From assembly GCF_056746865.1 (NCBI RefSeq), contig NZ_CM163382.1: DNA of 64,000 nt. The stretch is one strand, 5' to 3'. The translations under genes were made by a program, and so were the position numbers. The notes beneath the pieces are model-generated. The model was given only the letters and a program-made list of their open reading frames with translations, was not told where the DNA came from and searched no databases. This document shows positions 26,762 through 51,269 of the stretch, in pieces (positions within the stretch are counted from its first letter, which is position 1; each line of letters opens with the position of its first letter).

Positions 26762-27977
26762 CGATAATTCTCTTAATAAGCGCCCCACGTTTAAAAGAGC
26801 ATTACGCAACATCAGTATGACCAGCATATTTATCACTATGATGCTGATCTGGTTGCTGCTTTCAGTGACCTCGGTGCTGACCCTGAAACAGTACGCGCAA
26901 AAAAACCTGGCACTGACAGCAGCAACAATGACTTACAGTCTGGAAGCAGCGGTCGTTTTTGCCGATGGCCCTGCAGCAACTGAAACACTGGCGGCGCTGG
27001 GGCAGCAAGGGCAATTTTCAACTGCAGAAGTGCGTGATAAGCAGCAAAATATTCTGGCATCCTGGCATTACACCCGTAAGGATCCAGGCGATACTTTCAG
27101 TAATTTCATAAGCCACTGGCTCTTCCCTGCCCCCATCGTTCAGCCGATTCGTCACAATGGTGAAACCATTGGCGAAGTTCGCTTAACCGCTCGCGACAGT
27201 TCAATCAGCCATTTCATCTGGTTTTCGCTCGCTGTCCTGACCGCCTGCATTCTGCTGGCATCAGGCATCGCAATTACCCTCACCCGCCATTTGCACAATG
27301 GTCTGGTTGAAGCGTTAAAAAACATCACCGATGTCGTACATGATGTGCGTTCCAACCGCAATTTTTCCCGACGAGTTTCGGAAGAACGTATCGCAGAGTT
27401 TCACCGCTTCGCTCTCGACTTCAACAGTCTGCTGGATGAAATGGAAGAGTGGCAGCTTCGTTTACAGGCCAAAAATGCGCAGCTTCTGCGTACCGCGCTA
27501 CATGACCCATTAACCGGGCTGGCTAACCGCGCAGCGTTTCGTAGCGGTATCAATACGTTGATGAACAATTCCGATGCCCGAAAAACGTCGGCGTTACTAT
27601 TTCTTGATGGCGATAATTTCAAATATATCAATGATACCTGGGGTCATGCGACGGGCGATCGTGTCTTGATTGAGGTAGCAAAACGGTTAGCTGAATTTGG
27701 CGGGCTGCGACATAAAGCATACCGCCTGGGCGGCGATGAATTCGCGATGGTGCTCTATGATGTACAGTCGGAATCTGAAGTGCAGCAGATATGCTCAGCA
27801 CTGACACAAATCTTTAATCTCCCGTTTGATCTTCATAATGGCCATCAGACCACCATGACATTAAGCATTGGTTACGCGATGACCATTGAGCACGCCTCTG
27901 CGGAAAAATTACAAGAGCTTGCCGATCACAATATGTATCAGGCCAAACACCAGCGTGCCGAAAAGCTGGTGAGATAA
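26751..27977 (+). CDS. dgcN: membrane diguanylate cyclase DgcN (YfiN), GGDEF domain
   Basis: 408-aa ORF with TM segments, HAMP-like region and RLGGDEF motif. Confidence 0.92.
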
Positions 27978-27992
27978 CAAGGATATATCGAT

Positions 27993-28475
27993 ATGATAAA
28001 GCACCTGGTAGCACCCCTGATTTTCACCTCACTAATACTGACTGGCTGCCAGTCCCCTCAGGGAAAGTTTACTCCTGAGCAAGTCGCCGCTATGCAATCT
28101 TATGGATTTACTGAATCCGCCGGCGACTGGTCGCTGGGCTTATCAGATGCCATTCTGTTCGCAAAAAATGACTACAAATTGCTCCCGGAAAGCCAGCAAC
28201 AGATCCAAACCATGGCAGCCAAATTGGCCTCGACAGGGCTAACACATGCCCGTATGGATGGACACACCGATAACTATGGTGAAGACAGTTACAACGAAGG
28301 CTTATCATTGAAACGGGCGAATGTCGTGGCCGATGCATGGGCTATTGGTGGACAAATTCCACGCAGCAATCTCACCACACAGGGTTTAGGAAAAAAATAT
28401 CCCATAGCCAGTAACAAGACCGCCCAGGGCCGCGCCGAGAACCGCCGCGTCGCAGTGGTGATTACAACCCCTTAA
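27993..28475 (+). CDS. yfiB: OmpA-family lipoprotein YfiB
   Basis: 160-aa ORF, lipobox LTGCQ, OmpA-like C-terminus. Confidence 0.9.
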   Translation: MIKHLVAPLIFTSLILTGCQSPQGKFTPEQVAAMQSYGFTESAGDWSLGLSDAILFAKNDYKLLPESQQQIQTMAAKLASTGLTHARMDGHTDNYGEDSYNEGLSLKRANVVADAWAIGGQIPRSNLTTQGLGKKYPIASNKTAQGRAENRRVAVVITTP

Positions 28476-39960: not shown

Positions 39961-40323
39961 GGGGCTGATTCTGGATTCGACGGGATTTGCGAAACCCAAG
40001 GTGCATGCCGAGGGGCGGTTGGCCTCGTAAAAAGCCGCAAAAAATAGTCGCAAACGACGAAAACTACGCTTTAGCAGCTTAATAACCTGCTTAGAGCCCT
40101 CTCTCCCTAGCCTCCGCTCTTAGGACGGGGATCAAGAGAGGTCAAACCCAAAAGAGATCGCGTGGAAGCCCTGCCTGGGGTTGAAGCGTTAAAACTTAAT
40201 CAGGCTAGTTTGTTAGTGGCGTGTCCGTCCGCAGCTGGCAAGCGAATGTAAAGACTGACTAAGCATGTAGTACCGAGGACGTAGGAATTTCGGACGCGGG
40301 TTCAACTCCCGCCAGCTCCACCA
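39961..40323 (+). ncRNA. ssrA: tmRNA (transfer-messenger RNA, 10Sa RNA)
   Basis: Starts GGGGCTGATTCTGGATTCGACGGG, contains tag-coding GCAAACGACGAAAACTACGCTTTAGCAGCTTAA and ends GGTTCAACTCCCGCCAGCTCCACCA; 363 nt. Confidence 0.97.
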
Positions 40324-40489: not shown

Positions 40490-41737
40490 ATGCCTAAGCA
40501 ACTGAAACCCTTAACAAATGTGGAGATCGCTGGCGCGAAGCCCCGTAGCACGGATTATGAGCTACGGGACGGTGAAGGCCTGTACTTGCTGGTTAAGACT
40601 TCAGGGAGGAAGGCCTGGCATTTCGAGTATTATCATCCCGTCACCAAAAAGCGCACCAAAACCAGCCTTGGCCCTTACCCGGTCGTTACACTGGCCATGG
40701 CTCGCGAAACTCGCACGAAATACAGACGACTGCTCTGGCAGGGCATCGATCCCCGTCAACACTTAGCAGGAATAGCCGAAGAAAAACGCCTCCAGAATGA
40801 ATGCACGCTGGAAAAAGTTGCGGAACAGTGGCTCAAAGAGAAGAAACGGACCAGCGACCTTAGCGAAGATCACGCCAAAGATGTCTGGCGCTCGCTGGAG
40901 ATGCACGTCTTCCCTTCTCTGGGCAGTACGCCCGTCACCGAGATCCGCCCGAAGATGCTCAAGGAACACCTCACCCCGCTGGAAGAACAGGGCATCCTCG
41001 AAACGCTGCGCCGGGTTATCTCACGGCTCAATGAAATCTTCCGCTTCGCCATCTCCGAAGAGCTTATCGAGTTTAACCCAGCAGACAACCTGGTCGCCCG
41101 CTTCAAGAAACCGAAAAAGCAGAACATGCCCGCCCTTCCCCCCAGCGAACTGGGCAGACTAATGTTGGCACTACAAAACGCCTCTATCCGCAAGGAAACA
41201 CGCTGCCTTATCGAATGGGAGCTACTGACCTGGGTTCGCCCCGGCGAAGCCGTTAGCGCCCGCTGGTGCGACATCGATATGAAAAAAGCGGAATGGCGTA
41301 TCCCTGACACCTTTATGAAGATGAACCGTTCACACACGGTGCCGCTCAGCAAACAGGCGCTGCGTGTTCTTCAGATCATGGAGCCCGTCAGCCGCCATCG
41401 TCCGTGGGTCTTCCCCAGCATCCGCAAACCGCTGGAGCACATGCACCAGCAGACCGCGAACGCCGCGCTTATCCGCATGGGGTTCGGCGGTGAGCTGGTC
41501 GCCCACGGCATGCGCAGCATCGCCAGAACGGCGGGCGCAGGTCATTTTCCCCGTGAAGTTCTGGAATCTGCACTGGCACACCAGAAAGAAGACGAGATCG
41601 AAGCGGCCTACAATCGCAGCGACTATCTGGAACAAAGGCGACCGCTCATGCAGTGGTGGGGAAACTACGTTGATGCCGCCAGACGGCAGGCATTGCTCGG
41701 TGAAGAAGAACCGCTGCGGATCGTGGAAGGAGAATAA
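40490..41737 (+). CDS. P4-type tyrosine integrase
   Basis: 415-aa ORF; clear similarity to recalled CP4-57 IntA (MxxQxKPLTxxEIxxAKP...NRSDYLEQRRPMMQWW), with HGMRSIAR and YNRSDY catalytic-region motifs. Confidence 0.92.
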   Translation: MPKQLKPLTNVEIAGAKPRSTDYELRDGEGLYLLVKTSGRKAWHFEYYHPVTKKRTKTSLGPYPVVTLAMARETRTKYRRLLWQGIDPRQHLAGIAEEKRLQNECTLEKVAEQWLKEKKRTSDLSEDHAKDVWRSLEMHVFPSLGSTPVTEIRPKMLKEHLTPLEEQGILETLRRVISRLNEIFRFAISEELIEFNPADNLVARFKKPKKQNMPALPPSELGRLMLALQNASIRKETRCLIEWELLTWVRPGEAVSARWCDIDMKKAEWRIPDTFMKMNRSHTVPLSKQALRVLQIMEPVSRHRPWVFPSIRKPLEHMHQQTANAALIRMGFGGELVAHGMRSIARTAGAGHFPREVLESALAHQKEDEIEAAYNRSDYLEQRRPLMQWWGNYVDAARRQALLGEEEPLRIVEGE

Positions 41738-41738
41738 T

Positions 41739-42383
41739 GTGACCAGTCCCATTCGTCAGAATCTGTTTGAACGGGAATGCGATATGCCGCTGCTGGAAGC
41801 GCGGCATCTCGCCCTTCTGCTTCTCGGCCTTGATGCTTCCCAACCTGCAAACGCCCTGCCGGAAGAACATCAGGAAAATTACCGTATCCTGCACGACGCC
41901 ATCAGTCGCACCATCAAAGCAACGGGCATGGTCAGCGCCCCGGCGAACAAACGCATGTTCTATGCCGATGAAATGTTCGCGCTGGCCTGGCGGCTTATTG
42001 ATGACGAACTCACGCCGCCAGAAATTAAGGCCCGGAGCCTGAAGGCAGTGATGAAACTGTCACGCAACAGCCGTGGCCGCAAGTGGCTGAAGACGCTCGG
42101 CGACGATGCGCTGCCGGATCTCACTGCTTCCACACAACCTTCCCTGCGTGGGATGCATAAGCGCGACAAAGCACGGGAGAATACTGCCAGGCTCTGCTGG
42201 TTACTGGTTCAGCTTCTGGTTGATGAGACTGACGGACGGTATGGCACGTCTGATAAACCGGCTTCGGATCGGATACTTCGGAAGCTGAAGGAGCTGGCGC
42301 AGGAGCGGGAATTACCGTCAGACGGGCTTGGGCGAGGGACGTTTTATGAGGTTTTGAAGATGGGAAGGGAGAAGGAAGTTTAG
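41739..42383 (+). CDS. hypothetical island protein (about 214 aa)
   Basis: In-frame GTG one codon after the integrase stop with GGAAGGAG 7 nt upstream; the longer ORF 41364..42383 overlaps the integrase and is trimmed. Confidence 0.5.
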   Translation: MTSPIRQNLFERECDMPLLEARHLALLLLGLDASQPANALPEEHQENYRILHDAISRTIKATGMVSAPANKRMFYADEMFALAWRLIDDELTPPEIKARSLKAVMKLSRNSRGRKWLKTLGDDALPDLTASTQPSLRGMHKRDKARENTARLCWLLVQLLVDETDGRYGTSDKPASDRILRKLKELAQERELPSDGLGRGTFYEVLKMGREKEV

Positions 42384-42732
42384 GTAATAACACTGCAGAT
42401 CGCACGTGAACACAGTGCCACTTTCCCTATGGAATGTGAAATTAATCGGTAATACCCCTCGAAAGAATGTGAACAGACACTCTCTTGCTTAACTGTTGAA
42501 ACTCTTCGAATTAAAGACAAGGTTCGCCATTTAATTATCTGACAGTTCGCCCCAGCACAACGTTAAAGTGATTTTTGATCAATCACCTACTCTGCTCTGG
42601 CAGAGCCAGAGCCGTTTTACTGACTAAAGCACAAGCTTCCAGCGAATGCACCTTTCCACACACCATAAGTCTTGTGTGATACCAGCACTGACGGTGTATG
42701 TTACATATCCTTAAAAAGTTCTCCAGACCGAC

Positions 42733-43905
42733 TTAGAGAACCTTAGACTGTTCTGGGAACCAGTTATTAATTATATGTCTTCGACAGACTTTAGATATTT
42801 CAAATACCTGTCGTGACACTAATGCACCATCAGGATGGCGCTGGTCAGGTATGTCATTTTCTATGTCATAAAAATTATGCGTTATTTCTGGGGGAAAGAA
42901 AACGTTTTTGTCTAAAGGCACGCTTGCATAGGGATTATAATACACATGCAAACCATCAAAATGAGTTTCCTTGTAGTCCCTTGTTCGGCACATTACAATA
43001 TCCGCGCCAACAACCTCATTGTTGTAGAATTGTCGCTTCGTAGTAACATAATGGTCAGGACCAAGTTTTCTCGTATGAGAACCTTCGTTCTTCATACCTT
43101 CATTGGCAATAAAAACATTCACATCAAGAGCTCGGAATCTCGTATATCGGACATATCGATCGACCCGACTCTGAACGATAGCCTTACCAAAAGTACCTGT
43201 CGTTGAAAACACGATAGCACTGATTTCTTTGTATGAGTCATTTGTAAAAATACCTAAAGGTATTTCAGTGTCTTCATTTTTTTTAATCGATAAAACCCTT
43301 CTTTGCCTACCATTTACTAAATCTCTCATCGTAGGTTCTTCAATGCCAAACAATACCCGGTTAATGATTGTATTATTCTGGGTTAAAGATAGATCTGAAT
43401 CAAATGGGGCCAATGCTAACACAAAAGGCTTACCGATTACATGTTCCATTGTTGAGTATGGGAACTTCTTACCATTAATTCCGGTAAAGAGATCGCGCTT
43501 ATCTTTAATTTTCCCAAGAAGTTTTAGCGTAGATTGATGCTTAAACTTAGCTTCACTGAAAATTTCACTGACTGGCGGTTTATGGGGCTTGTCAGAGACC
43601 ATAGCCTCTACGTTAAATTTATAACCTAATGGCGTGCTAACACAAAAATCAGGACTGTCTTTTGTATAGTCAACCGAATACCCCAAACGAATAAACATCT
43701 CATTTAGATATAATTCCCACATAGAAGAATTAAAGGTAGTCTGAAATTCGTTAATAAATTTAGTTTGTTCACCACTGCGTTCCAGTAATCCGCGTCCCCA
43801 TGATTGGATCACCGCCCTAACAGGAGCAAGTTTAGGATCTGTGTAGATTGTTTTAAAATTGTGATTTAGTTTATTTCTAGCTATTTTTGTTGAGAAGAGA
43901 TCCAT
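42733..43905 (-). CDS. hypothetical 390-aa protein, opposite strand, AT-rich
   Basis: Long uninterrupted ORF with good RBS (agaggtaaataATG); no family recognised. Confidence 0.7.
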   Translation of the reverse strand: MDLFSTKIARNKLNHNFKTIYTDPKLAPVRAVIQSWGRGLLERSGEQTKFINEFQTTFNSSMWELYLNEMFIRLGYSVDYTKDSPDFCVSTPLGYKFNVEAMVSDKPHKPPVSEIFSEAKFKHQSTLKLLGKIKDKRDLFTGINGKKFPYSTMEHVIGKPFVLALAPFDSDLSLTQNNTIINRVLFGIEEPTMRDLVNGRQRRVLSIKKNEDTEIPLGIFTNDSYKEISAIVFSTTGTFGKAIVQSRVDRYVRYTRFRALDVNVFIANEGMKNEGSHTRKLGPDHYVTTKRQFYNNEVVGADIVMCRTRDYKETHFDGLHVYYNPYASVPLDKNVFFPPEITHNFYDIENDIPDQRHPDGALVSRQVFEISKVCRRHIINNWFPEQSKVL

Positions 43906-44356
43906 TATTTACCTCTATAAACACTTTGTAAAACTAAACATGTGTATTTTACTGCGCTGATTGTCGAACATATGCTTCAAATTGTAATGCGGTATTCTAC
44001 ATCAGAAAAACCTCTTTTATATTTTCCTCATTAAATTTATTTACACCGAAAAATAGCCGCATGAATCATGTCTGAACAGATGAACTTCTCTAATATAGCC
44101 TAAATACCTACGACTGCGCTATAAAGAGGGAACCTCAAGCACTAATAGCACAAAGAAAATATGCGAACACAAATTTGACGCGAAACTATGACTTAGATAG
44201 GATGAATCTAGGTGGTGATGGTCACCTGGCGCCTGTCTCGCAAAGCAATAGCCCATCGTTCAGAAGTATACCAAATACTTGGCCGCCATCCATTATGACG
44301 CTGCCCGGTTAGCAGGCTATCGGTATCCAAAGCGTTACTTTATTGGAGGTACAGCC

Positions 44357-44896
44357 ATGTCTGACTATTCATACCTAAGCATTCTTAAAACGTGCGCTAA
44401 AAAGCTGGCTCGCATTCAGAAAATTAAGCTTTCCAAAGCACTCGAAATCGTTGCCCGTGACGCGAAATTCACCAGCTACCATGAGCTGTCCGAAGTCGCA
44501 AAACGTGCCCCGCTAGAACAACGGCTGGTTTTCGCTGCAATAGGCGAAGATACTCAAGAGGATGTGATTTATCGCGATGAGATTTTTTATGCCATAGACC
44601 GCGAGGTGGAAGATATGCTCTCCGGCGACATAGCGGAAACAAACGCCTATGGTTTTAGCATAGAGAATCTGGAGGCAACAAGCATAAATTACGACCCAAA
44701 GCGAGGCATTCTGGTCGTCCAAGTCATATTTGATTATCAGGGTGAACAAGATTCTGAACGCCCTTTCTCTGGTTCGTCCTTTGAAATTGTTGCGAAAATG
44801 GAGCTACTTCTTCGCGACAATGTATGGAGCCTCGTAGAAAATAGTCTGGAATTGACCTCTGTTAATTCAAATGTCGATAATGACTGGTACGATTAA
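44357..44896 (+). CDS. hypothetical acidic 179-aa protein
   Basis: ATG at 44357 preceded by GGAGG; ORF 44279..44896 trimmed. Confidence 0.6.
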   Translation: MSDYSYLSILKTCAKKLARIQKIKLSKALEIVARDAKFTSYHELSEVAKRAPLEQRLVFAAIGEDTQEDVIYRDEIFYAIDREVEDMLSGDIAETNAYGFSIENLEATSINYDPKRGILVVQVIFDYQGEQDSERPFSGSSFEIVAKMELLLRDNVWSLVENSLELTSVNSNVDNDWYD

Positions 44897-45497
44897 GACA
44901 TATAACAGTAGGAGGCATTCCAAATTTTTGGCGGAGTGCCTTTTTAGTAACTATATCCAGATGAAATCATCGAGTTATCACATGAGCATCCATCTTACGT
45001 GTACTCAAAACACTTATGGGCTTCTAAATTCAGGAAGTCCCTACTCCGCTTGCTGGCGCTTCTTTGAGCCTCGTGGCGTCCATATACACCAATTAGGCCA
45101 GACCATGCTCAAACAACTTGTCGAGAAATGCTATGTGCAAAAACCACTGGACATGTTCTCGATGACAGCAGGCAAACTAACTGGGCTTGATCAATCTGGG
45201 CCTAAACTGGCTTCCATCATATGCAGAGGGATAGAGCAGGCCAAAGATGTACAACTCGGAGAGTTACTTTTTGCCTGCGGTATCTATGGTGTGGAAGAAG
45301 AAGAAGCCTGGTTACTAGCTAAAAGATTCAGTAATCTTGAGGCCTTGTATGGTGCCAGCATAGATTCTCTGATGAGTTATAACCTTCTTAATGAGGCAGT
45401 AGCTGTCAATACGTATAACTTCTTCCGTCATCCGCTCAATGTGTCGGCTCTTAACGAGTTACAAACAGAAGGTGGATTGAAGGTGCGCCATGGATAG
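44871..45497 (+). CDS. protein with NAD-dependent DNA ligase-like C-terminal helix-hairpin-helix region (start uncertain; possible remnant)
   Basis: C-terminal ~100 aa (GPKLASIICRGIEQAKDVQLGELLFACGIYGV...LEALYGASIDSLMSYNLLNEAVAVNTYNFFRHPLNVSALNELQTEGGLKV) aligns by eye to the LigA HhH region; alternative starts TTG 44928 (AGGAGG upstream) or ATG 44961. Confidence 0.5.
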   Translation: MSIMTGTIKTYNSRRHSKFLAECLFSNYIQMKSSSYHMSIHLTCTQNTYGLLNSGSPYSACWRFFEPRGVHIHQLGQTMLKQLVEKCYVQKPLDMFSMTAGKLTGLDQSGPKLASIICRGIEQAKDVQLGELLFACGIYGVEEEEAWLLAKRFSNLEALYGASIDSLMSYNLLNEAVAVNTYNFFRHPLNVSALNELQTEGGLKVRHG

Positions 45498-45831: not shown

Positions 45832-46047
45832 ATGAAAACCAGTGCAGACAGTAACGATGCTTTTCCCGAAAGCGGCAACGTGCGTATGCGGCAGGTAGTC
45901 CAGTTTCTGGCGATGAGTGAATCGTCGGTTTACCGCCTGATTAAAAACACCGACTTTCCCCGCCCCGTCCACCTCTCTTCCCGACTGGTGGTCTTCGATG
46001 CTGCTGAAATCCGTCAGTGGCAACAGCGCCGCGCCGCCATCCGTTAA
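45832..46047 (+). CDS. alpA: AlpA-family phage transcriptional regulator (HTH)
   Basis: 71-aa ORF with RMRQVVQFLAMSESSVYRLIKNTDFPRPV helix-turn-helix typical of AlpA. Confidence 0.85.
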   Translation: MKTSADSNDAFPESGNVRMRQVVQFLAMSESSVYRLIKNTDFPRPVHLSSRLVVFDAAEIRQWQQRRAAIR

Positions 46048-46082
46048 TCCACGCTCAGGGATGAGCCGACTGATACCCCGTC

Positions 46083-48152
46083 ATGAAACGCGCCCCTTTT
46101 CTCTGTAAGCAGTCTCCGGACCGCACGCTCGAAGTGGTGATCCTTGCCGGAAGCCTGGCATGGGAGACCTCACACGTGTGGCGAAAAGATCCCGACCGGG
46201 AAGATGATGTTCCCCCGATGGTACTCGGCCCGGATGAACTGGCCGATCTGAGCAATCTGACCATTATCAGGCCCGACACGCTCTACGTCCGGGTACTTCG
46301 CACCGGCGATATCAGTGAAGAAGAGCTGCTGAAAATTGCCGTAAAACTGGCGCACGCGGGCGTGCAGATGGCCCGGCTGATGACCCCTGACGGTGAGTTA
46401 CTGGAGAACTGGACCGGACAGCTTGAACGCCTGCGACAGGAAAGACCTTCTGACATCCTGCCGGATCACTTCCGCCTCGATGAAGAAGCACTGTGGTTTG
46501 ATAAGCTCACCGAACGGCGCGACGGTGAAAGCGATGTCCAGCCCCAGCGCATCTGTTCCCCTCTGCGCGTCACTGCCATCACCTGCGACAGCCATGACGG
46601 CAGCTATGGCCGCCTGCTGGAATGGCACACCACCACCGGGCAATTGCGGCGCTGGGCCATGCCGATGGCGATGCTCAGCGGCAACGGCGAGGAGCTGAGG
46701 CGCATTCTGCTGGAGAACGGCCTGACCTATATCTCCACCCGCCCTGCCCTGCGCAGTCTGCTGTGCGAATATATCTCGCGGTCACTCCCCGGACGCCGGG
46801 TCACCTGCGCGGAGAAAACCGGCTGGCACAACGGCGTGTACGTGCTGCCGGATGAGGTTATCGGTCCCGATGGCGACAACGTCATTCTCCAGGGCAGCCA
46901 CTACCTGACTGGCGGCTTTGCACAATCCGGTACGCTGGCAGAGTGGCAGGAGCAGGTCGCCGCGCTCTGTGCAGGCAATTCACGGCTGGTCTTTGCCGTC
47001 TGCTGTGCGCTGGCCGCCCCGCTGCTGCGCCTGACAGGAACGGGCGGCGGAGGCTTTCATCTGCGCGGTGAGTCCACTGACGGTAAGACCACGGTGATGA
47101 AAGTGGCCGCTTCCGTCTGTGGCGGGACGGATTACTGGCACTCCTGGCGGGCCACCGGGAATGCGCTGGAAGGAATTGCCAGCCGCCACAACGATGCCCT
47201 GCTGCCACTTGATGAACTGCGCGAAGTGGACCCGCGTGAGGCCGGGATGATTGCCTATATGCTGGCGAACGGACAGGGCAAGGGGCGCGCCCGCACCGAT
47301 GGCGAAGTGCGTAACCGCAGGCACTGGACGCTGCTGCTGTTCTCCACCGGGGAGCTGTCGCTGGCGGAACACACCGAATGCGCCGGGGAGCGCCTCTACG
47401 CCGGGATGGACGTGCGCATGGTACAAATCCCCAGCGACACCGGGCAGCATGGTTCGTTTGAGCAGTTGCACGGGTTTGCCAGCGGCCAGCAGTTCGCCGA
47501 TACTCTCTGCGACCGGGTGGCCCGCTTCCACGGCACCGCCTTTCGTGCCTGGCTGGCCTTCCTCACCAGCGACCTGGACGCCAGCACCACGCTGGCGAGA
47601 GAGTTACTTCGCCGCTACCAGACCGCCCTGATGCCGGACAACGCCGGAAACCAGGTGCAGCGCATCGTGGCCCGTTTTGCCCTGCTGGCGGTGGCCGGGG
47701 AGATAGCGACACTGAACGGTATCACGGGCTGGCAGGAAGGCTCGGCGTATGGGGCGGTGCAGATCTGCCTTCACGCCTGGCTGAACGAGCGCGGCCATAT
47801 TGCCAACCAGGAAGATGAAGGCGTGCTGGCGCAGATCAAGCGGTTCATTACCGCGCACCAGTACAGCCGCTTTGCCTCGTGGGATGGCCCGGACCGCCCG
47901 CTGAATATGGCAGGCTTTCGCCGGGTGGAAAAAGATCCGCTGACGGGCGAGGAACACACGCTGTTCTTCATCCTGCCTGAGGGCTGGCGGGAAATATGCC
48001 GGGGATTCAGTCCTGCCAGAGCGGCCAGATTATGCCAGGAAGCGGAATGCCTGCTGCCCGGCAGCGACGGGAAATACCAGTCGCAGGTTCGCCTGCCGGA
48101 GATCGGCAAAGCCAGAGTCTACCGCCTCACCTCCCGCATCCTCAGTATCTGA
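46083..48152 (+). CDS. P4 alpha-like primase/helicase-type replication protein (P-loop NTPase C-terminal half)
   Basis: 689-aa ORF, Walker A GESTDGKTTV, position after alpA as in P4-like and PICI elements; GC-rich unlike the cargo. Confidence 0.75.
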   Translation: MKRAPFLCKQSPDRTLEVVILAGSLAWETSHVWRKDPDREDDVPPMVLGPDELADLSNLTIIRPDTLYVRVLRTGDISEEELLKIAVKLAHAGVQMARLMTPDGELLENWTGQLERLRQERPSDILPDHFRLDEEALWFDKLTERRDGESDVQPQRICSPLRVTAITCDSHDGSYGRLLEWHTTTGQLRRWAMPMAMLSGNGEELRRILLENGLTYISTRPALRSLLCEYISRSLPGRRVTCAEKTGWHNGVYVLPDEVIGPDGDNVILQGSHYLTGGFAQSGTLAEWQEQVAALCAGNSRLVFAVCCALAAPLLRLTGTGGGGFHLRGESTDGKTTVMKVAASVCGGTDYWHSWRATGNALEGIASRHNDALLPLDELREVDPREAGMIAYMLANGQGKGRARTDGEVRNRRHWTLLLFSTGELSLAEHTECAGERLYAGMDVRMVQIPSDTGQHGSFEQLHGFASGQQFADTLCDRVARFHGTAFRAWLAFLTSDLDASTTLARELLRRYQTALMPDNAGNQVQRIVARFALLAVAGEIATLNGITGWQEGSAYGAVQICLHAWLNERGHIANQEDEGVLAQIKRFITAHQYSRFASWDGPDRPLNMAGFRRVEKDPLTGEEHTLFFILPEGWREICRGFSPARAARLCQEAECLLPGSDGKYQSQVRLPEIGKARVYRLTSRILSI

Positions 48153-48824: not shown

Positions 48825-49811
48825 ATGGTTAAAATTCACATTTTAGATGCCGGACATGGTGATTGCTTGTTAGTAGACTGCGATGGTGTCAAATTGTTAA
48901 TTGACGCTGGCCCAAGTACATTTAGGTATAGAAAAAAAATTTCAGCCAAGTTAGCTGAACTTCTGAATGGCGAGTCTGTTGATATCGCTTTTGTAACTCA
49001 CAATGATGATGACCATATCGGTGGTTTCAAATACCTAATTGAAAATAAAATAAACATCAAGAGATTTGTATTCAATAGTTTATCTAACATTAAACATGTA
49101 ATAAAGAATTCAAGCAATAAAATATCGACCAAACAAGATATAAATCTTGATAGAATAGTGAAAGATGGAAGTTTTGTCTTTTCGACACTAACTTCAGATG
49201 ACTCTCCTATTTTAATCAGAAATATAAAAATAACACCTATTACTCCTTCAAAAAATATCCTTTTAAAATATTTAGAACAACAAGAGCGTAAAAACACAGA
49301 AATTAAAATATCATCTTCATCTGAAAAATATAGTATTAAAGAAGCACTGCAGTTGCTAAGCAATGGAAATGATATGTTTGTAAAGGATCCATCGGCAACT
49401 AATAAAACCAGTTTATCATTTATGATTGAGTATGGGAATTTTTGTGGATTATTCCTTGGTGATGCACACGAAGAAGACATCTACTCATATATGGCTAATC
49501 ATTGTGCCAATAGAAAAATATCATTTAACGTTGTTAAGTTAGCACATCATGGTAGTGAAAAAAACACGAGTTCACGGTTATTGAAGTTAATTGGTACAAC
49601 AGAATATATCATATGTGCGAATAAAACCAAGCATAATCATCCAAATAATTTAACTCTTGCAAGAATTTTAATACATGAACAAGAACCTAAAATTCATATG
49701 AGTAGCAGCAATCAGGAGATAATAAATTTACTCAATCAAATAAATTTATTAGGCTTCGGCATTACTGCAACCCATTCTGAAAATGGAGTTAATACTTTAA
49801 TCTATGAGTAG
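48825..49811 (+). CDS. metallo-beta-lactamase-fold protein, ComEC-like (putative nuclease/hydrolase)
   Basis: 328-aa ORF: ILDAGHGDCLLVDCDGVKLLIDAG start, THNDDDHIGG metal-binding-like motif, AHHGSEKNTS motif; very AT-rich. Confidence 0.7.
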   Translation: MVKIHILDAGHGDCLLVDCDGVKLLIDAGPSTFRYRKKISAKLAELLNGESVDIAFVTHNDDDHIGGFKYLIENKINIKRFVFNSLSNIKHVIKNSSNKISTKQDINLDRIVKDGSFVFSTLTSDDSPILIRNIKITPITPSKNILLKYLEQQERKNTEIKISSSSEKYSIKEALQLLSNGNDMFVKDPSATNKTSLSFMIEYGNFCGLFLGDAHEEDIYSYMANHCANRKISFNVVKLAHHGSEKNTSSRLLKLIGTTEYIICANKTKHNHPNNLTLARILIHEQEPKIHMSSSNQEIINLLNQINLLGFGITATHSENGVNTLIYE

Positions 49812-51269
49812 AAAAAATGCTGTAAAAATAAAAGTCAATGATTCGGAATCAAGTGGCTATTTTTTCAAAGCAAGCTCCAAGGATGATTCTTTTGTAATTT
49901 CATCCAAGCACGGCCTTTGTTCTAGACAGTCAGATTGTGAAGAATTTCTTGATAATGTTCAGAATTGTTGCCGTTTATGCACTCAAGATTTAAATATTGA
50001 CAATATATCTTTTGAAATTGAAGGAAATAAGAAGCTAAAGCCAATAAGTTATTTCAGTCTTGAAAACAAAGATATTGTCATCACCAAAGTGGATGGGGTA
50101 TCTAATTATCCTTTAAGGATAGGAAAGATAGAAAAAGAAAAGTATTATACTTATGGTTACAAGAGTAAATGTGATAAGCCTGGCAGAATTTTATTAAATG
50201 AGCCAGATTTATTAGATGGGATTTGTTATTTCAATATATGTTCCGATGCAACACCTGAGTTGATTGAGAAAAGTGAAGAATATTATGGAATTTCAGGTTC
50301 ATTAGTTTTTGATTCTCCAGAAAAAGATGTTTTAACCGCACATGCAGTAATAACAACTAATGAAACCAATAATGACTTAGGTTCAGAAATATTACATGAT
50401 ATTGATTTCAAAGAAATTAATAACTTTTTCGGCTGTGAAGTATTCTTGGGTAAAAAACTCCAATTTCAACTAGATGATACTTTTAGTAAAAATTTTTCAA
50501 AGATTGGAGAAGTGCTTGTTAGCGACAAACTCCAAATTGAAATATTTATTTCATCTTATAAAGGTATACCATATTTTAATTTGACACCAATTGCTGATGC
50601 ATTAATTCAAAGTAAGTTTTATTATGTTTTTGGAAATGTTAGTAGAAGTGATCATATAAATATAATCGCTGCATCAAACATTATACTCAACAAATCTCAT
50701 TTAGAACCAGCTAATAAATTATTAACTAGCAAATTAACTGAATCGATATTATCAGCACCTCATATTTATTCCACTAGCATTGATGATAATAATTATCATC
50801 ATATTCATTTTAAACAAATGACTTCTGGTGATATTGAGCTCATAATATCATGTTATGGTGGAGGAGATGATCTTCCTAAAGATATAAATGGCACTTTAAC
50901 TGAGTTGTTACACAATATAAATACTTATAACTTAAATAAAAATTCAATAATTGAGAGGTCTTTTCTTAATCAAAAATTTACAGATGCACAATGCGAAATT
51001 TTATATGAGATTTTTTTGAGCGATTAACTGATTCAATCGACAGAATTTCATTATTGCATGTAATTCCTTTGGACCATTATTTAATAAAAGATAAATCAGA
51101 AATTAAAAATGAAATTATTACCATTGTTGAGAAAGCGTGTCAAGAATTAGACAGCAACATTTTAGATTATCTTGAGCATGGAATATCTATAAATCTATTA
51201 ATATTTCCAACTAATAATAAAGATGAATTATCAGGGTTAATGCAAAGGTTGATAAATAATTATGAATGA
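49804..51269 (+). CDS. protein with trypsin-like serine protease-type motifs; reading frame interrupted at a T7 run (ORFs 49804..51027 and 51054..51269 probably one gene)
   Basis: Start overlaps the MBL gene stop by 8 nt (ATGAGTAG); motifs SSKHGLC, NKDIVITKV, GISGSLVF; frame 1 stops at 51027 while frame 0 stays open from the T7 run (51011-51017) to 51269 and has no ATG or RBS of its own. Confidence 0.6.

What the first reader, a model, noticed from the sequence alone, without database searches (positions are those of the whole stretch)
42733..43905. Orphan 390-aa protein on the opposite strand between integrase and alpA
A long intact ORF with a good RBS, AT-rich and transcribed opposite to the int - alpA - primase backbone, in the slot where these elements carry their repressor or accessory cargo. 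I recognise no family. It is too large for a simple repressor, so it could be a single-gene defence or superinfection-exclusion protein. A compact island protein without annotation is worth a targeted look.
Basis: inference. Interest (0 to 1): 0.5.

Follow-up and report, generated by a model that had tools for sequence, protein, structure and literature searches.

The report
Known phage-defence gene PD-T7-5
The unannotated 390-aa gene is a real, intact copy of PD-T7-5, a single-gene anti-phage defence system shown to work in E. coli in 2022; it is already known, although how the protein stops phage is still unsolved.

Summary
The ORF at 42733-43905 (-) is exactly as described: 390 aa, a GAGG ribosome-binding site 6 nt upstream, GC about 0.36-0.40 against 0.55-0.66 in the flanking integrase and alpA/primase genes, in an island inserted next to ssrA. 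It is not an orphan. It matches the PADLOC model for PD-T7-5 end to end (E = 2.4e-137). Vassallo et al. (2022) selected this single-gene system with phage T7 from E. coli UMB0934 and validated it from a 1.4-kb clone with its native promoter. The reference ORF has the same length (1173 nt). RefSeq, Pfam and NCBIfam still call it hypothetical. The mechanism is unpublished. My analysis supports a restriction-endonuclease-like (PD-(D/E)xK) fold with invariant E64, PD86 and E100, but the canonical lysine is replaced by Met/Val. K136, K241 and a C-terminal E313...DGL...N324-P motif are invariant across a superfamily of about 1,160 clusters that includes PD-T7-1. No solved structure resembles it closely. 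Homologues sit in prophages, ICEs, phage-plasmids and defence islands with no conserved partner gene. Novelty: already known. Interest: low.

The parts
42733..43905 (-). PD-T7-5 coding sequence (390 aa plus stop)
   Evidence: ORF list. PADLOC PD-T7-5 E = 2.4e-137 over the full length. phrog_8571 E = 1.1e-101. RefSeq WP_000362947.1 'hypothetical protein', 100% DNA identity.
43911..43916 (-). Ribosome-binding site AGAGGT, with 6 nt between GAGG and the ATG
   Evidence: Read directly from the sequence.
43906..44048 (-). AT-rich upstream region expected to hold the native promoter (inferred, not mapped)
   Evidence: The reference clone that confers defence carried only 119-143 bp beyond the ORF on each side (Table S2 of PMC9519451). 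The consensus promoter scan found no site above chance in a sensible position.
43156..43905 (-). Residues 1-250: conserved nuclease-like core, shared with PD-T7-1. Holds the candidate active-site residues Q55, E64, P85-D86-F87, E100, K136 and K241.
43018..43131 (-). Residues about 259-296: helix plus beta-hairpin insert found only in the PD-T7-5 clade
   Evidence: Gapped in most superfamily relatives in alignment A3. Predicted as helix 262-268 and strands 275-282 and 285-294.
42796..42978 (-). Residues about 310-370: universally conserved C-terminal motif (E313, G318, N324-P325, A327; also H315, D317, H357-P-D359, S364-R365 within the clade)
   Evidence: Invariant columns are. The segment is confident only in the full-length model (pLDDT 92-97) and drops to about 50 when residues 247-390 are modelled alone.
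39961..40323 (+). ssrA (tmRNA), the integration site of the island (context)
   Evidence: ARAGORN; RefSeq annotation.
40490..41737 (+). Tyrosine integrase of the island (context)
   Evidence: Pfam Arm-DNA-bind_3, Phage_int_M and Phage_integrase.
45832..48152 (+). alpA (45832-46047) and DUF927 primase-like gene (46083-48152), the island backbone (context)
   Evidence: Pfam Phage_AlpA E = 2.2e-23 and DUF927 E = 1.4e-106. PHROG DNA primase E = 1e-114.

Best explanation
The gene is PD-T7-5, a stand-alone anti-phage defence gene. It is carried as low-GC cargo in an integrase-alpA-primase island inserted at ssrA. The reference gene alone has been shown elsewhere to protect E. coli K-12 against phage T7. 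I infer here that the protein most likely acts as a metal-dependent nuclease of the restriction-endonuclease (PD-(D/E)xK) fold. The candidate acidic site is E64 (helix 1), D86 (the 'PDF' strand) and E100 (next strand). The usual strand lysine is missing (Met/Val at position 102), so an invariant lysine elsewhere (K136 or K241) would have to take its role. The invariant C-terminal E313...DGL...N324-P segment appears to pack onto the core rather than form a separate domain. On infection the enzyme would cut nucleic acid and stop phage replication. I favour phage DNA or replication/recombination intermediates as the target. The target, the trigger, and whether the infected cell survives are not established.
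For: Identity:
- The PADLOC PD-T7-5 model matches the full length at E = 2.4e-137. Eight homologues at 47-85% identity score the same way.
- The reference ORF in UMB0934 spans 27110-28283, which I take to be the same 1173-nt length as this ORF, and was cloned alone as 26967-28402 (Table S2).
- Table S1 lists it as validated, predicted 'Nuclease', with no escape plaques.
- The paper states that every cloned system reduced the efficiency of plating (EOP) of its selecting phage without affecting adsorption.

Single-gene autonomy:
- Neighbours differ completely in a Proteus lambdoid prophage, a Pseudomonas island, a Delftia ICE, a Rhizobiales defence island and an E. coli phage-plasmid.

Nuclease fold:
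- The AF2 model is confident (pLDDT 87, pTM 0.88).
- The top Foldseek hit is FokI (E = 0.05).
- The authors' HHpred run gave Hjc at 77.9% probability over residues 63-107.
- E64, P85-D86-F87, E100, K136, K241, E313 and N324 are invariant in 28 superfamily members at 24-48% identity.
Against: - A second chromosomal E. coli allele (83% identity) and a plasmid allele (76%) also exist.
- The canonical (D/E)xK lysine is absent in every member ('EAM' or 'EAV').
- No active-site mutant of PD-T7-5 and no biochemistry is reported in the papers found.
- Some of the best structural matches (CdiA-CT toxins, tRNA-splicing endonucleases) include enzymes that, from my own knowledge, cut RNA, so an RNA target is open.
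Confidence: 0.85

Rival explanations
1. Abortive-infection RNase or indiscriminate nuclease. The same PD-(D/E)xK-like site is kept inactive until infection, then destroys host tRNA, rRNA or all cellular DNA. The infected cell dies or stalls, and the phage is stopped only at the population level.
Confidence: 0.3
2. Non-catalytic blocker. The restriction-endonuclease-like fold has lost catalysis (no strand lysine). The protein defends by binding a phage DNA structure or a phage protein, for example by blocking T7 genome entry, replication or packaging.
For: The canonical lysine of the (D/E)xK motif is Met or Val in all members. Similarity to known nucleases is weak in both sequence and structure.
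Against: Three acidic residues sit at the expected topological positions, and two lysines are invariant across relatives down to 24% identity. That pattern is typical of catalytic rather than purely structural sites. From established knowledge, other PD-(D/E)xK enzymes vary or relocate this residue, for example Glu in BamHI and Gln in BglII.
Confidence: 0.1
3. A housekeeping gene of the island, such as a recombination, resolution or replication nuclease needed for the island's own life cycle. Under this reading phage protection is a side effect.
For: It lies between the integrase and alpA, where island regulators often sit. It shows weak similarity to Holliday-junction resolvases.
Against: Close homologues occur in unrelated settings: lambdoid prophages, an ICE, SSU5-like phage-plasmids, and chromosomal defence islands beside Hachiman, AbiJ-like, AbiGi-like, Cap4-nuclease and Lit-like protease genes. 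The gene's GC differs sharply from the island backbone. The gene alone protects K-12, which lacks this island.
Confidence: 0.03

Closest known systems
PD-T7-5 (Vassallo et al. 2022, Nat Microbiol; clone T7-74 from E. coli UMB0934, protein RRM82777.1)
   Same: Full-length HMM match, the same 390-aa length, the same species, a single gene, and annotation as hypothetical. The window allele is by far the commonest E. coli allele found.
   Different: Nothing was detected. Residue-by-residue identity to the reference could not be checked here.
PD-T7-1 (same study; 449-450 aa, from ECOR46; lambdoid-prophage copies such as the one in phage mEp460)
   Same: It shares the core. The PD-T7-1 profile positions 108-347 match residues 1-241 at E = 1.5e-40, and the match extends to profile position 429 for one homologue. 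It also has the same weak PD-(D/E)xK prediction. It is reported active against T7-like phages.
   Different: PD-T7-1 has an extra N-terminal region of about 107-130 aa. By inference from PD-T7-1-like relatives (P0142, P0144), it lacks the 259-296 insert of the PD-T7-5 clade. Identity is only about 23-25%.
PD-(D/E)xK (restriction-endonuclease-like) nucleases, e.g. archaeal Hjc, VRR-NUC/FAN1, CdiA-CT toxins, HamA of Hachiman
   Different: There is no lysine two residues after the strand-3 Glu. The protein has a long N-terminal helical region and a C-terminal motif that appears integrated into the core. No sequence-level match to any Pfam or PDB nuclease was found.
Defence cargo of phage satellites and integrative islands (P4-like hotspots, PICI-borne systems)
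   Same: An int-alpA-primase backbone at a tRNA-like site, carrying low-GC defence genes.
   Different: No capsid-redirection or packaging genes and no attR repeat were found in the window. The element looks like a decayed or minimal island rather than a functional satellite.

Membership tests
PD-T7-5 defence system | Full-length match to the PD-T7-5 profile used by PADLOC | tested here: met
   E = 2.4e-137, 455.7 bits, residues 1-371 against profile positions 1-342 of 346. Homologues score 417-458 bits.
PD-T7-5 defence system | Same size and architecture as the reference gene (one ORF of about 1173 nt) | tested here: met
   Reference ORF 27110-28283 on RRWJ01000050 (Table S2), which I take to be 1173 nt like the window ORF 42733-43905.
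PD-T7-5 defence system | Works alone, with no obligatory partner gene | tested here: met
   The reference clone holds only the ORF plus 119-143 bp on each side. No neighbour is conserved across six genomic contexts.
PD-T7-5 defence system | Sequence identity to reference protein RRM82777.1 | not testable with these tools
   The reference sequence is not held by any tool. No paper lists both accessions.
PD-T7-5 defence system | Reduces plaquing of phage T7 | not testable with these tools
   Reported for the reference clone in PMC9519451. Not tested for this allele.
PD-(D/E)xK nuclease superfamily | [quoted passage not shown] | tested here: inconclusive
PD-(D/E)xK nuclease superfamily | Catalytic motif D ... 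(D/E)-x-K | tested here: not met
   P85-D86 and E100 are invariant, but the residue two after E100 is Met or Val in all 32 members. Invariant K136 and K241 lie elsewhere. This is a non-canonical variant at best.
PD-(D/E)xK nuclease superfamily | Metal-dependent phosphodiester cleavage | not testable with these tools
   No biochemistry was found in the literature searches.
Restriction-modification system | Cognate methyltransferase next to the nuclease | tested here: not met
   No methyltransferase lies between int and alpA or in the homologue contexts examined.
Phage satellite (P4-like or PICI) | Integrase, alpA-type regulator and primase/replicase | tested here: met
   Pfam and PHROG hits.
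Phage satellite (P4-like or PICI) | Capsid-size or packaging redirection genes, and flanking att repeats | tested here: not met
   Downstream genes are an MBL-fold protein, an unknown 407-aa protein and HamB-like helicase halves. No second copy of the ssrA 3' end is present in the window.

The most novel reading that the evidence does not exclude
PD-T7-5 and its roughly 1,160-cluster superfamily may be a distinct nuclease architecture rather than a plain PD-(D/E)xK enzyme. The strand lysine is lost, lysines from helices (K136, K241) replace it, and an invariant C-terminal E313/N324 segment (plus H315, D317 and H357-P-D359 in the PD-T7-5 clade) folds back to complete or gate the active site. 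The clade-specific 259-296 beta-hairpin insert would then act as the phage sensor. If so, the family would be a new, structurally uncharacterised class of self-contained immune nuclease.
Probability: 0.2. Interest if true: 0.5.

Novelty: already known. Interest (0 to 1): 0.22.

Why it matters
For annotation, a gene present in about 2.5% of complete E. coli genomes (134 of 5,426) and in thousands of assemblies is still labelled 'hypothetical protein' by RefSeq, Pfam and NCBIfam, although a defence phenotype was published in 2022. It should be labelled PD-T7-5. For biology, the mechanism is still open. The conserved-residue map here gives a direct mutagenesis list: E64, D86, E100, K136, K241, E313 and N324. 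It also shows that PD-T7-1 and PD-T7-5 are two branches of one large superfamily with a shared core and variable add-ons. Apart from that, the finding itself brings nothing new.

Tried and rejected
- Pfam and NCBIfam on the protein, and Pfam on all 32 aligned homologues at E <= 10, gave no family.
- Profile searches of PDB sequences with the clade alignment and the superfamily alignment gave nothing meaningful. The best hit was E = 0.037, to a poxvirus C7 protein, which I judge to be chance.
- Foldseek against the PDB gave no hit at E <= 1e-3.
- I tried to learn whether PD-T7-5 acts by abortive infection or direct immunity. That information is only in a figure of PMC9519451 and not in the text or the supplements held.
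- I tried to confirm identity to RRM82777.1 through accessions in papers, cluster listings and PADLOC score ranking. None of these discriminated.
- I looked for alternative cargo in the same island backbone in E. coli. At megablast level the backbone is clonal, and full-length matches always carry this gene.
- I looked for the island's right-hand att site as a repeat of the ssrA 3' end. None is present in the window.
- The consensus promoter scan upstream found nothing above chance in a usable position.
- I rejected the weak HamA hit (E = 0.004) of the divergent 205-aa ORF as chance.

Full report
**Observation**

The window holds an intact 390-codon ORF on the minus strand at 42733-43905. AGAGGT lies at 43911-43916, 6 nt upstream of the ATG. 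GC across the gene is 0.35-0.41. The integrase to its left has 0.55-0.59, and the alpA/DUF927 genes to its right have 0.58-0.66.

The surrounding element starts immediately after the tmRNA gene ssrA at 39961-40323. It consists of:
- a tyrosine integrase (40490-41737);
- a 214-aa unknown protein (41739-42383);
- the ORF in question, on the opposite strand;
- a 179-aa unknown protein (44357-44896);
- a small helix-hairpin-helix protein (45135-45497);
- alpA (45832-46047);
- a DUF927 primase-like protein (46083-48152).

**Is it a real gene?**

Yes.
- The same DNA is present at >=99% identity in 134 of 5,426 complete E. coli genomes. It is always chromosomal and always annotated 'hypothetical protein' (WP_000362947.1).
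- The identical protein is indexed in 16,602 blocks of public assemblies, in the same ssrA-island context in the places read.
- Full-length homologues of 385-393 aa at 47-85% identity occur in Cronobacter, Enterobacter, Proteus, Yersinia, Salmonella, Pseudomonas, Delftia, Rhizobium/Agrobacterium, Sphingopyxis and Myxococcus.

**What it is**

Pfam and NCBIfam find nothing. The PADLOC library gives an end-to-end match to PD-T7-5 (PDLC04110, E = 2.4e-137, residues 1-371 against profile positions 1-342 of 346). It also gives a partial match to PD-T7-1 (E = 1.5e-40, residues 1-241). PHROGs places the protein in phrog_8571, of unknown function.

PD-T7-5 is one of 21 systems recovered by Vassallo et al. 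2022 (PMC9519451) in a functional selection of E. coli fosmid libraries.
- It is clone T7-74 from strain UMB0934 (contig RRWJ01000050, protein RRM82777.1). The ORF spans 27110-28283, and the cloned region spans 26967-28402 (Table S2).
- I take the reference ORF to be 1173 nt, the same length as this one.
- Table S1 lists it as predicted 'Nuclease', validated, shown in their Figure 3, with no escape plaques.
- The text states that each system was cloned with its native promoter on a low-copy vector in MG1655, did not affect adsorption, and substantially reduced the efficiency of plating of the phage used to select it.

I could not align the window protein to RRM82777.1 itself, because that sequence is not in the tools. 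The window allele is overwhelmingly the commonest E. coli allele found. Rarer 83% (chromosomal) and 76% (plasmid) alleles also exist.

**Context of relatives**

No neighbour is conserved.
- In Proteus the homologue sits in a lambdoid prophage, beside an AbiGi-like gene and near a Cap4-type nuclease.
- In Pseudomonas it sits in an island with conflict-system domains and IS66.
- In Delftia it sits in an ICE, beside a Lit-like Peptidase_U49 gene and near a DUF2971 gene.
- In Rhizobiales it sits beside Peptidase_U49, an AbiJ-like gene and a Hachiman HamA/HamB pair.
- In E. coli plasmids of about 112 kb that carry tail-fibre, DnaB-like helicase and primase genes, it sits next to DUF2971. These are probably the SSU5-like phage-plasmids in which PD-T7-5 has been reported.
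- Distant relatives of PD-T7-1 type occur in temperate phages such as mEp460.

This is the signature of an autonomous, horizontally mobile defence gene. It argues against a housekeeping role for the island.

Within E. coli the int-alpA-primase backbone is clonal. The 7.9-kb segment is found at >=99% identity in 135 genomes. In 132 of them at least 80% of the segment is covered, and every full-length match listed carries this gene. I could not see alternative cargo in the same 'slot'.

**Mechanism: what can be said**

No paper in the library reports a mechanism for PD-T7-5. It appears only in surveys and in lists of predicted PD-(D/E)xK proteins. The original HHpred evidence was weak: Hjc at 77.9% probability over residues 63-107.

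I built a 32-sequence alignment and an AlphaFold2 model with mean pLDDT 87.2 and pTM 0.88.
- Restriction-endonuclease-fold proteins recur through the list: 2okf (7.4), CdiA-CT toxins (7.0, 5.9, 5.7), VRR-NUC (6.2), tRNA-splicing endonuclease subunits (6.3-5.6), FAN1, Hjc (5.4, 5.3), HamA (5.3), Vsr, TnsA and Upx.
- The top Foldseek hit is FokI, at a non-significant E = 0.05.
- Profile searches of PDB sequences find nothing.

An exhaustive profile search of 1.84 billion representatives finds 1,161 clusters at E <= 1e-3.
- The whole PD-T7-5 clade collapses into one representative.
- Most relatives share only profile positions 1-242 plus a short second stretch.
- They fall into size classes of about 340-350, 375 and 455-470 aa. 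There are also PD-T7-1-like forms extended at the N-terminus.

In an alignment of 28 such relatives at 24-48% identity, the invariant residues are F54, Q55, W63, E64, Y66, P85, D86, F87, E100, K136, Y150, L185, F220, K241, E313, G318, N324 and A327. Mapped on the predicted secondary structure:
- E64 lies on helix 58-73.
- P85-D86 lies at the start of strand 87-90.
- E100 lies on strand 96-102.

This is the classical arrangement of a PD-(D/E)xK site. However, the residue two after E100 is Met or Val in every member, so the canonical lysine is absent. Invariant K136 (helix 118-141) or K241 (helix 238-246) would have to replace it. That step is inference.

The C-terminal part is not an independent domain.
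- Residues 259-296 are present only in the PD-T7-5 clade.
- The segment E313-x-H-x-DGL-x5-NP-x-A is universal.
- That segment is predicted with pLDDT 92-97 in the full-length model, but about 50 when residues 247-390 are modelled alone.

I infer that this segment packs onto the core, possibly at or near the active site. I had no access to model coordinates to measure this.

**Best explanation and rivals**

The best explanation is that this is PD-T7-5, a self-contained nuclease-type immune protein.
- Identity: about 0.95.
- Catalytic nuclease: about 0.6.
- Direct action on phage DNA rather than abortive infection: slightly favoured. This rests only on the screen-wide statistic that 7 of 11 nuclease-like systems gave direct immunity.

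The rivals are:
- an abortive RNase or indiscriminate nuclease, supported by the CdiA-CT and splicing-endonuclease matches and by the lack of any self-marking partner;
- a non-catalytic binder, supported by the missing lysine;
- an island housekeeping nuclease, disfavoured by the variable contexts and by function in K-12.

**Comparison with the known, and novelty**

The gene is a member of a named, experimentally validated defence family, so it is already known. It is related to PD-T7-1 through a shared core. It resembles PD-(D/E)xK nucleases in fold topology and acidic residues, but fails the strict motif test. It is not a restriction-modification system, because there is no methyltransferase.

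The island has satellite-like backbone genes. It has no packaging or capsid-redirection genes and no detectable attR in the window.

What remains open is the mechanism. The residue map and the superfamily structure given here are modest additions, not discoveries.

**Verdict**

Novelty is 'already known', and interest is low (about 0.2). The residual value is in correcting the annotation and in a short mutagenesis list for a defence protein whose mode of action has not been described.

Noticed in passing
window 48825-54420: A second, very AT-rich cargo block (GC 0.26-0.33) follows the primase. It holds an MBL-fold protein (48825-49811; PADLOC LmuA 2.9e-61, RTasMBL 1.3e-48, Avs1a 2.4e-35) and an overlapping 407-aa protein with no hit in Pfam or PADLOC (49804-51027). 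It also holds a Hachiman-type HamB helicase split into two ORFs in different frames (51262-52464 = profile positions 4-400 of 845; 52503-53786 = positions 413-842 of 845), with no HamA/DUF1837 gene. A capH-like HTH gene lies on the opposite strand (53941-54420). This may be a Hachiman-like variant with a different nuclease partner, or a decayed system.
   Followed up: partly
window 45135-45497 (longest ORF from 44871): A stand-alone helix-hairpin-helix protein that resembles only the C-terminal HhH region of NAD-dependent DNA ligase LigA (TIGR00575 positions 427-565 of 652, E = 3.6e-21; Pfam HHH_2; phrog_22334). It sits just upstream of alpA. Its role in an island is unclear. It was not found next to the PD-T7-5 homologues examined elsewhere.
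   Followed up: partly
window 41739-42383 and 44357-44896: Two further island proteins with no Pfam or PADLOC family: 214 aa (phrog_30524) and 179 aa (phrog_28020). Both belong to phage-protein families of unknown function. The 179-aa gene is divergent from PD-T7-5 across a 450-bp AT-rich spacer.
   Followed up: no
L008 6079-6930 and 8816-9424; L009/L010 8230-9093; L011 4215-4934: PD-T7-5 homologues in unrelated taxa repeatedly have a Peptidase_U49 (Lit-like) gene as immediate neighbour (Delftia ICE, Rhizobiales). A DUF2971 gene lies close by in the Delftia ICE and immediately adjacent in the E. coli phage-plasmid. This may only reflect clustering in defence islands, but the recurrence was not tested statistically.
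   Followed up: no
window 40324-64000: No second copy of the ssrA 3' end (attR) is present in the window, so the right end of the island is undefined. GC jumps from about 0.3 to about 0.61 at 54.5-54.8 kb, where sorbitol-type PTS and oxidoreductase genes begin. That GC is itself unusual for E. coli and suggests a further acquired segment.
   Followed up: partly
window 42594-42612: A perfect 8-bp GC-rich hairpin followed by a T-run on the plus strand. It lies between the convergent 214-aa gene and PD-T7-5 and probably terminates the plus-strand gene. On the minus strand there is no T-run.
   Followed up: no
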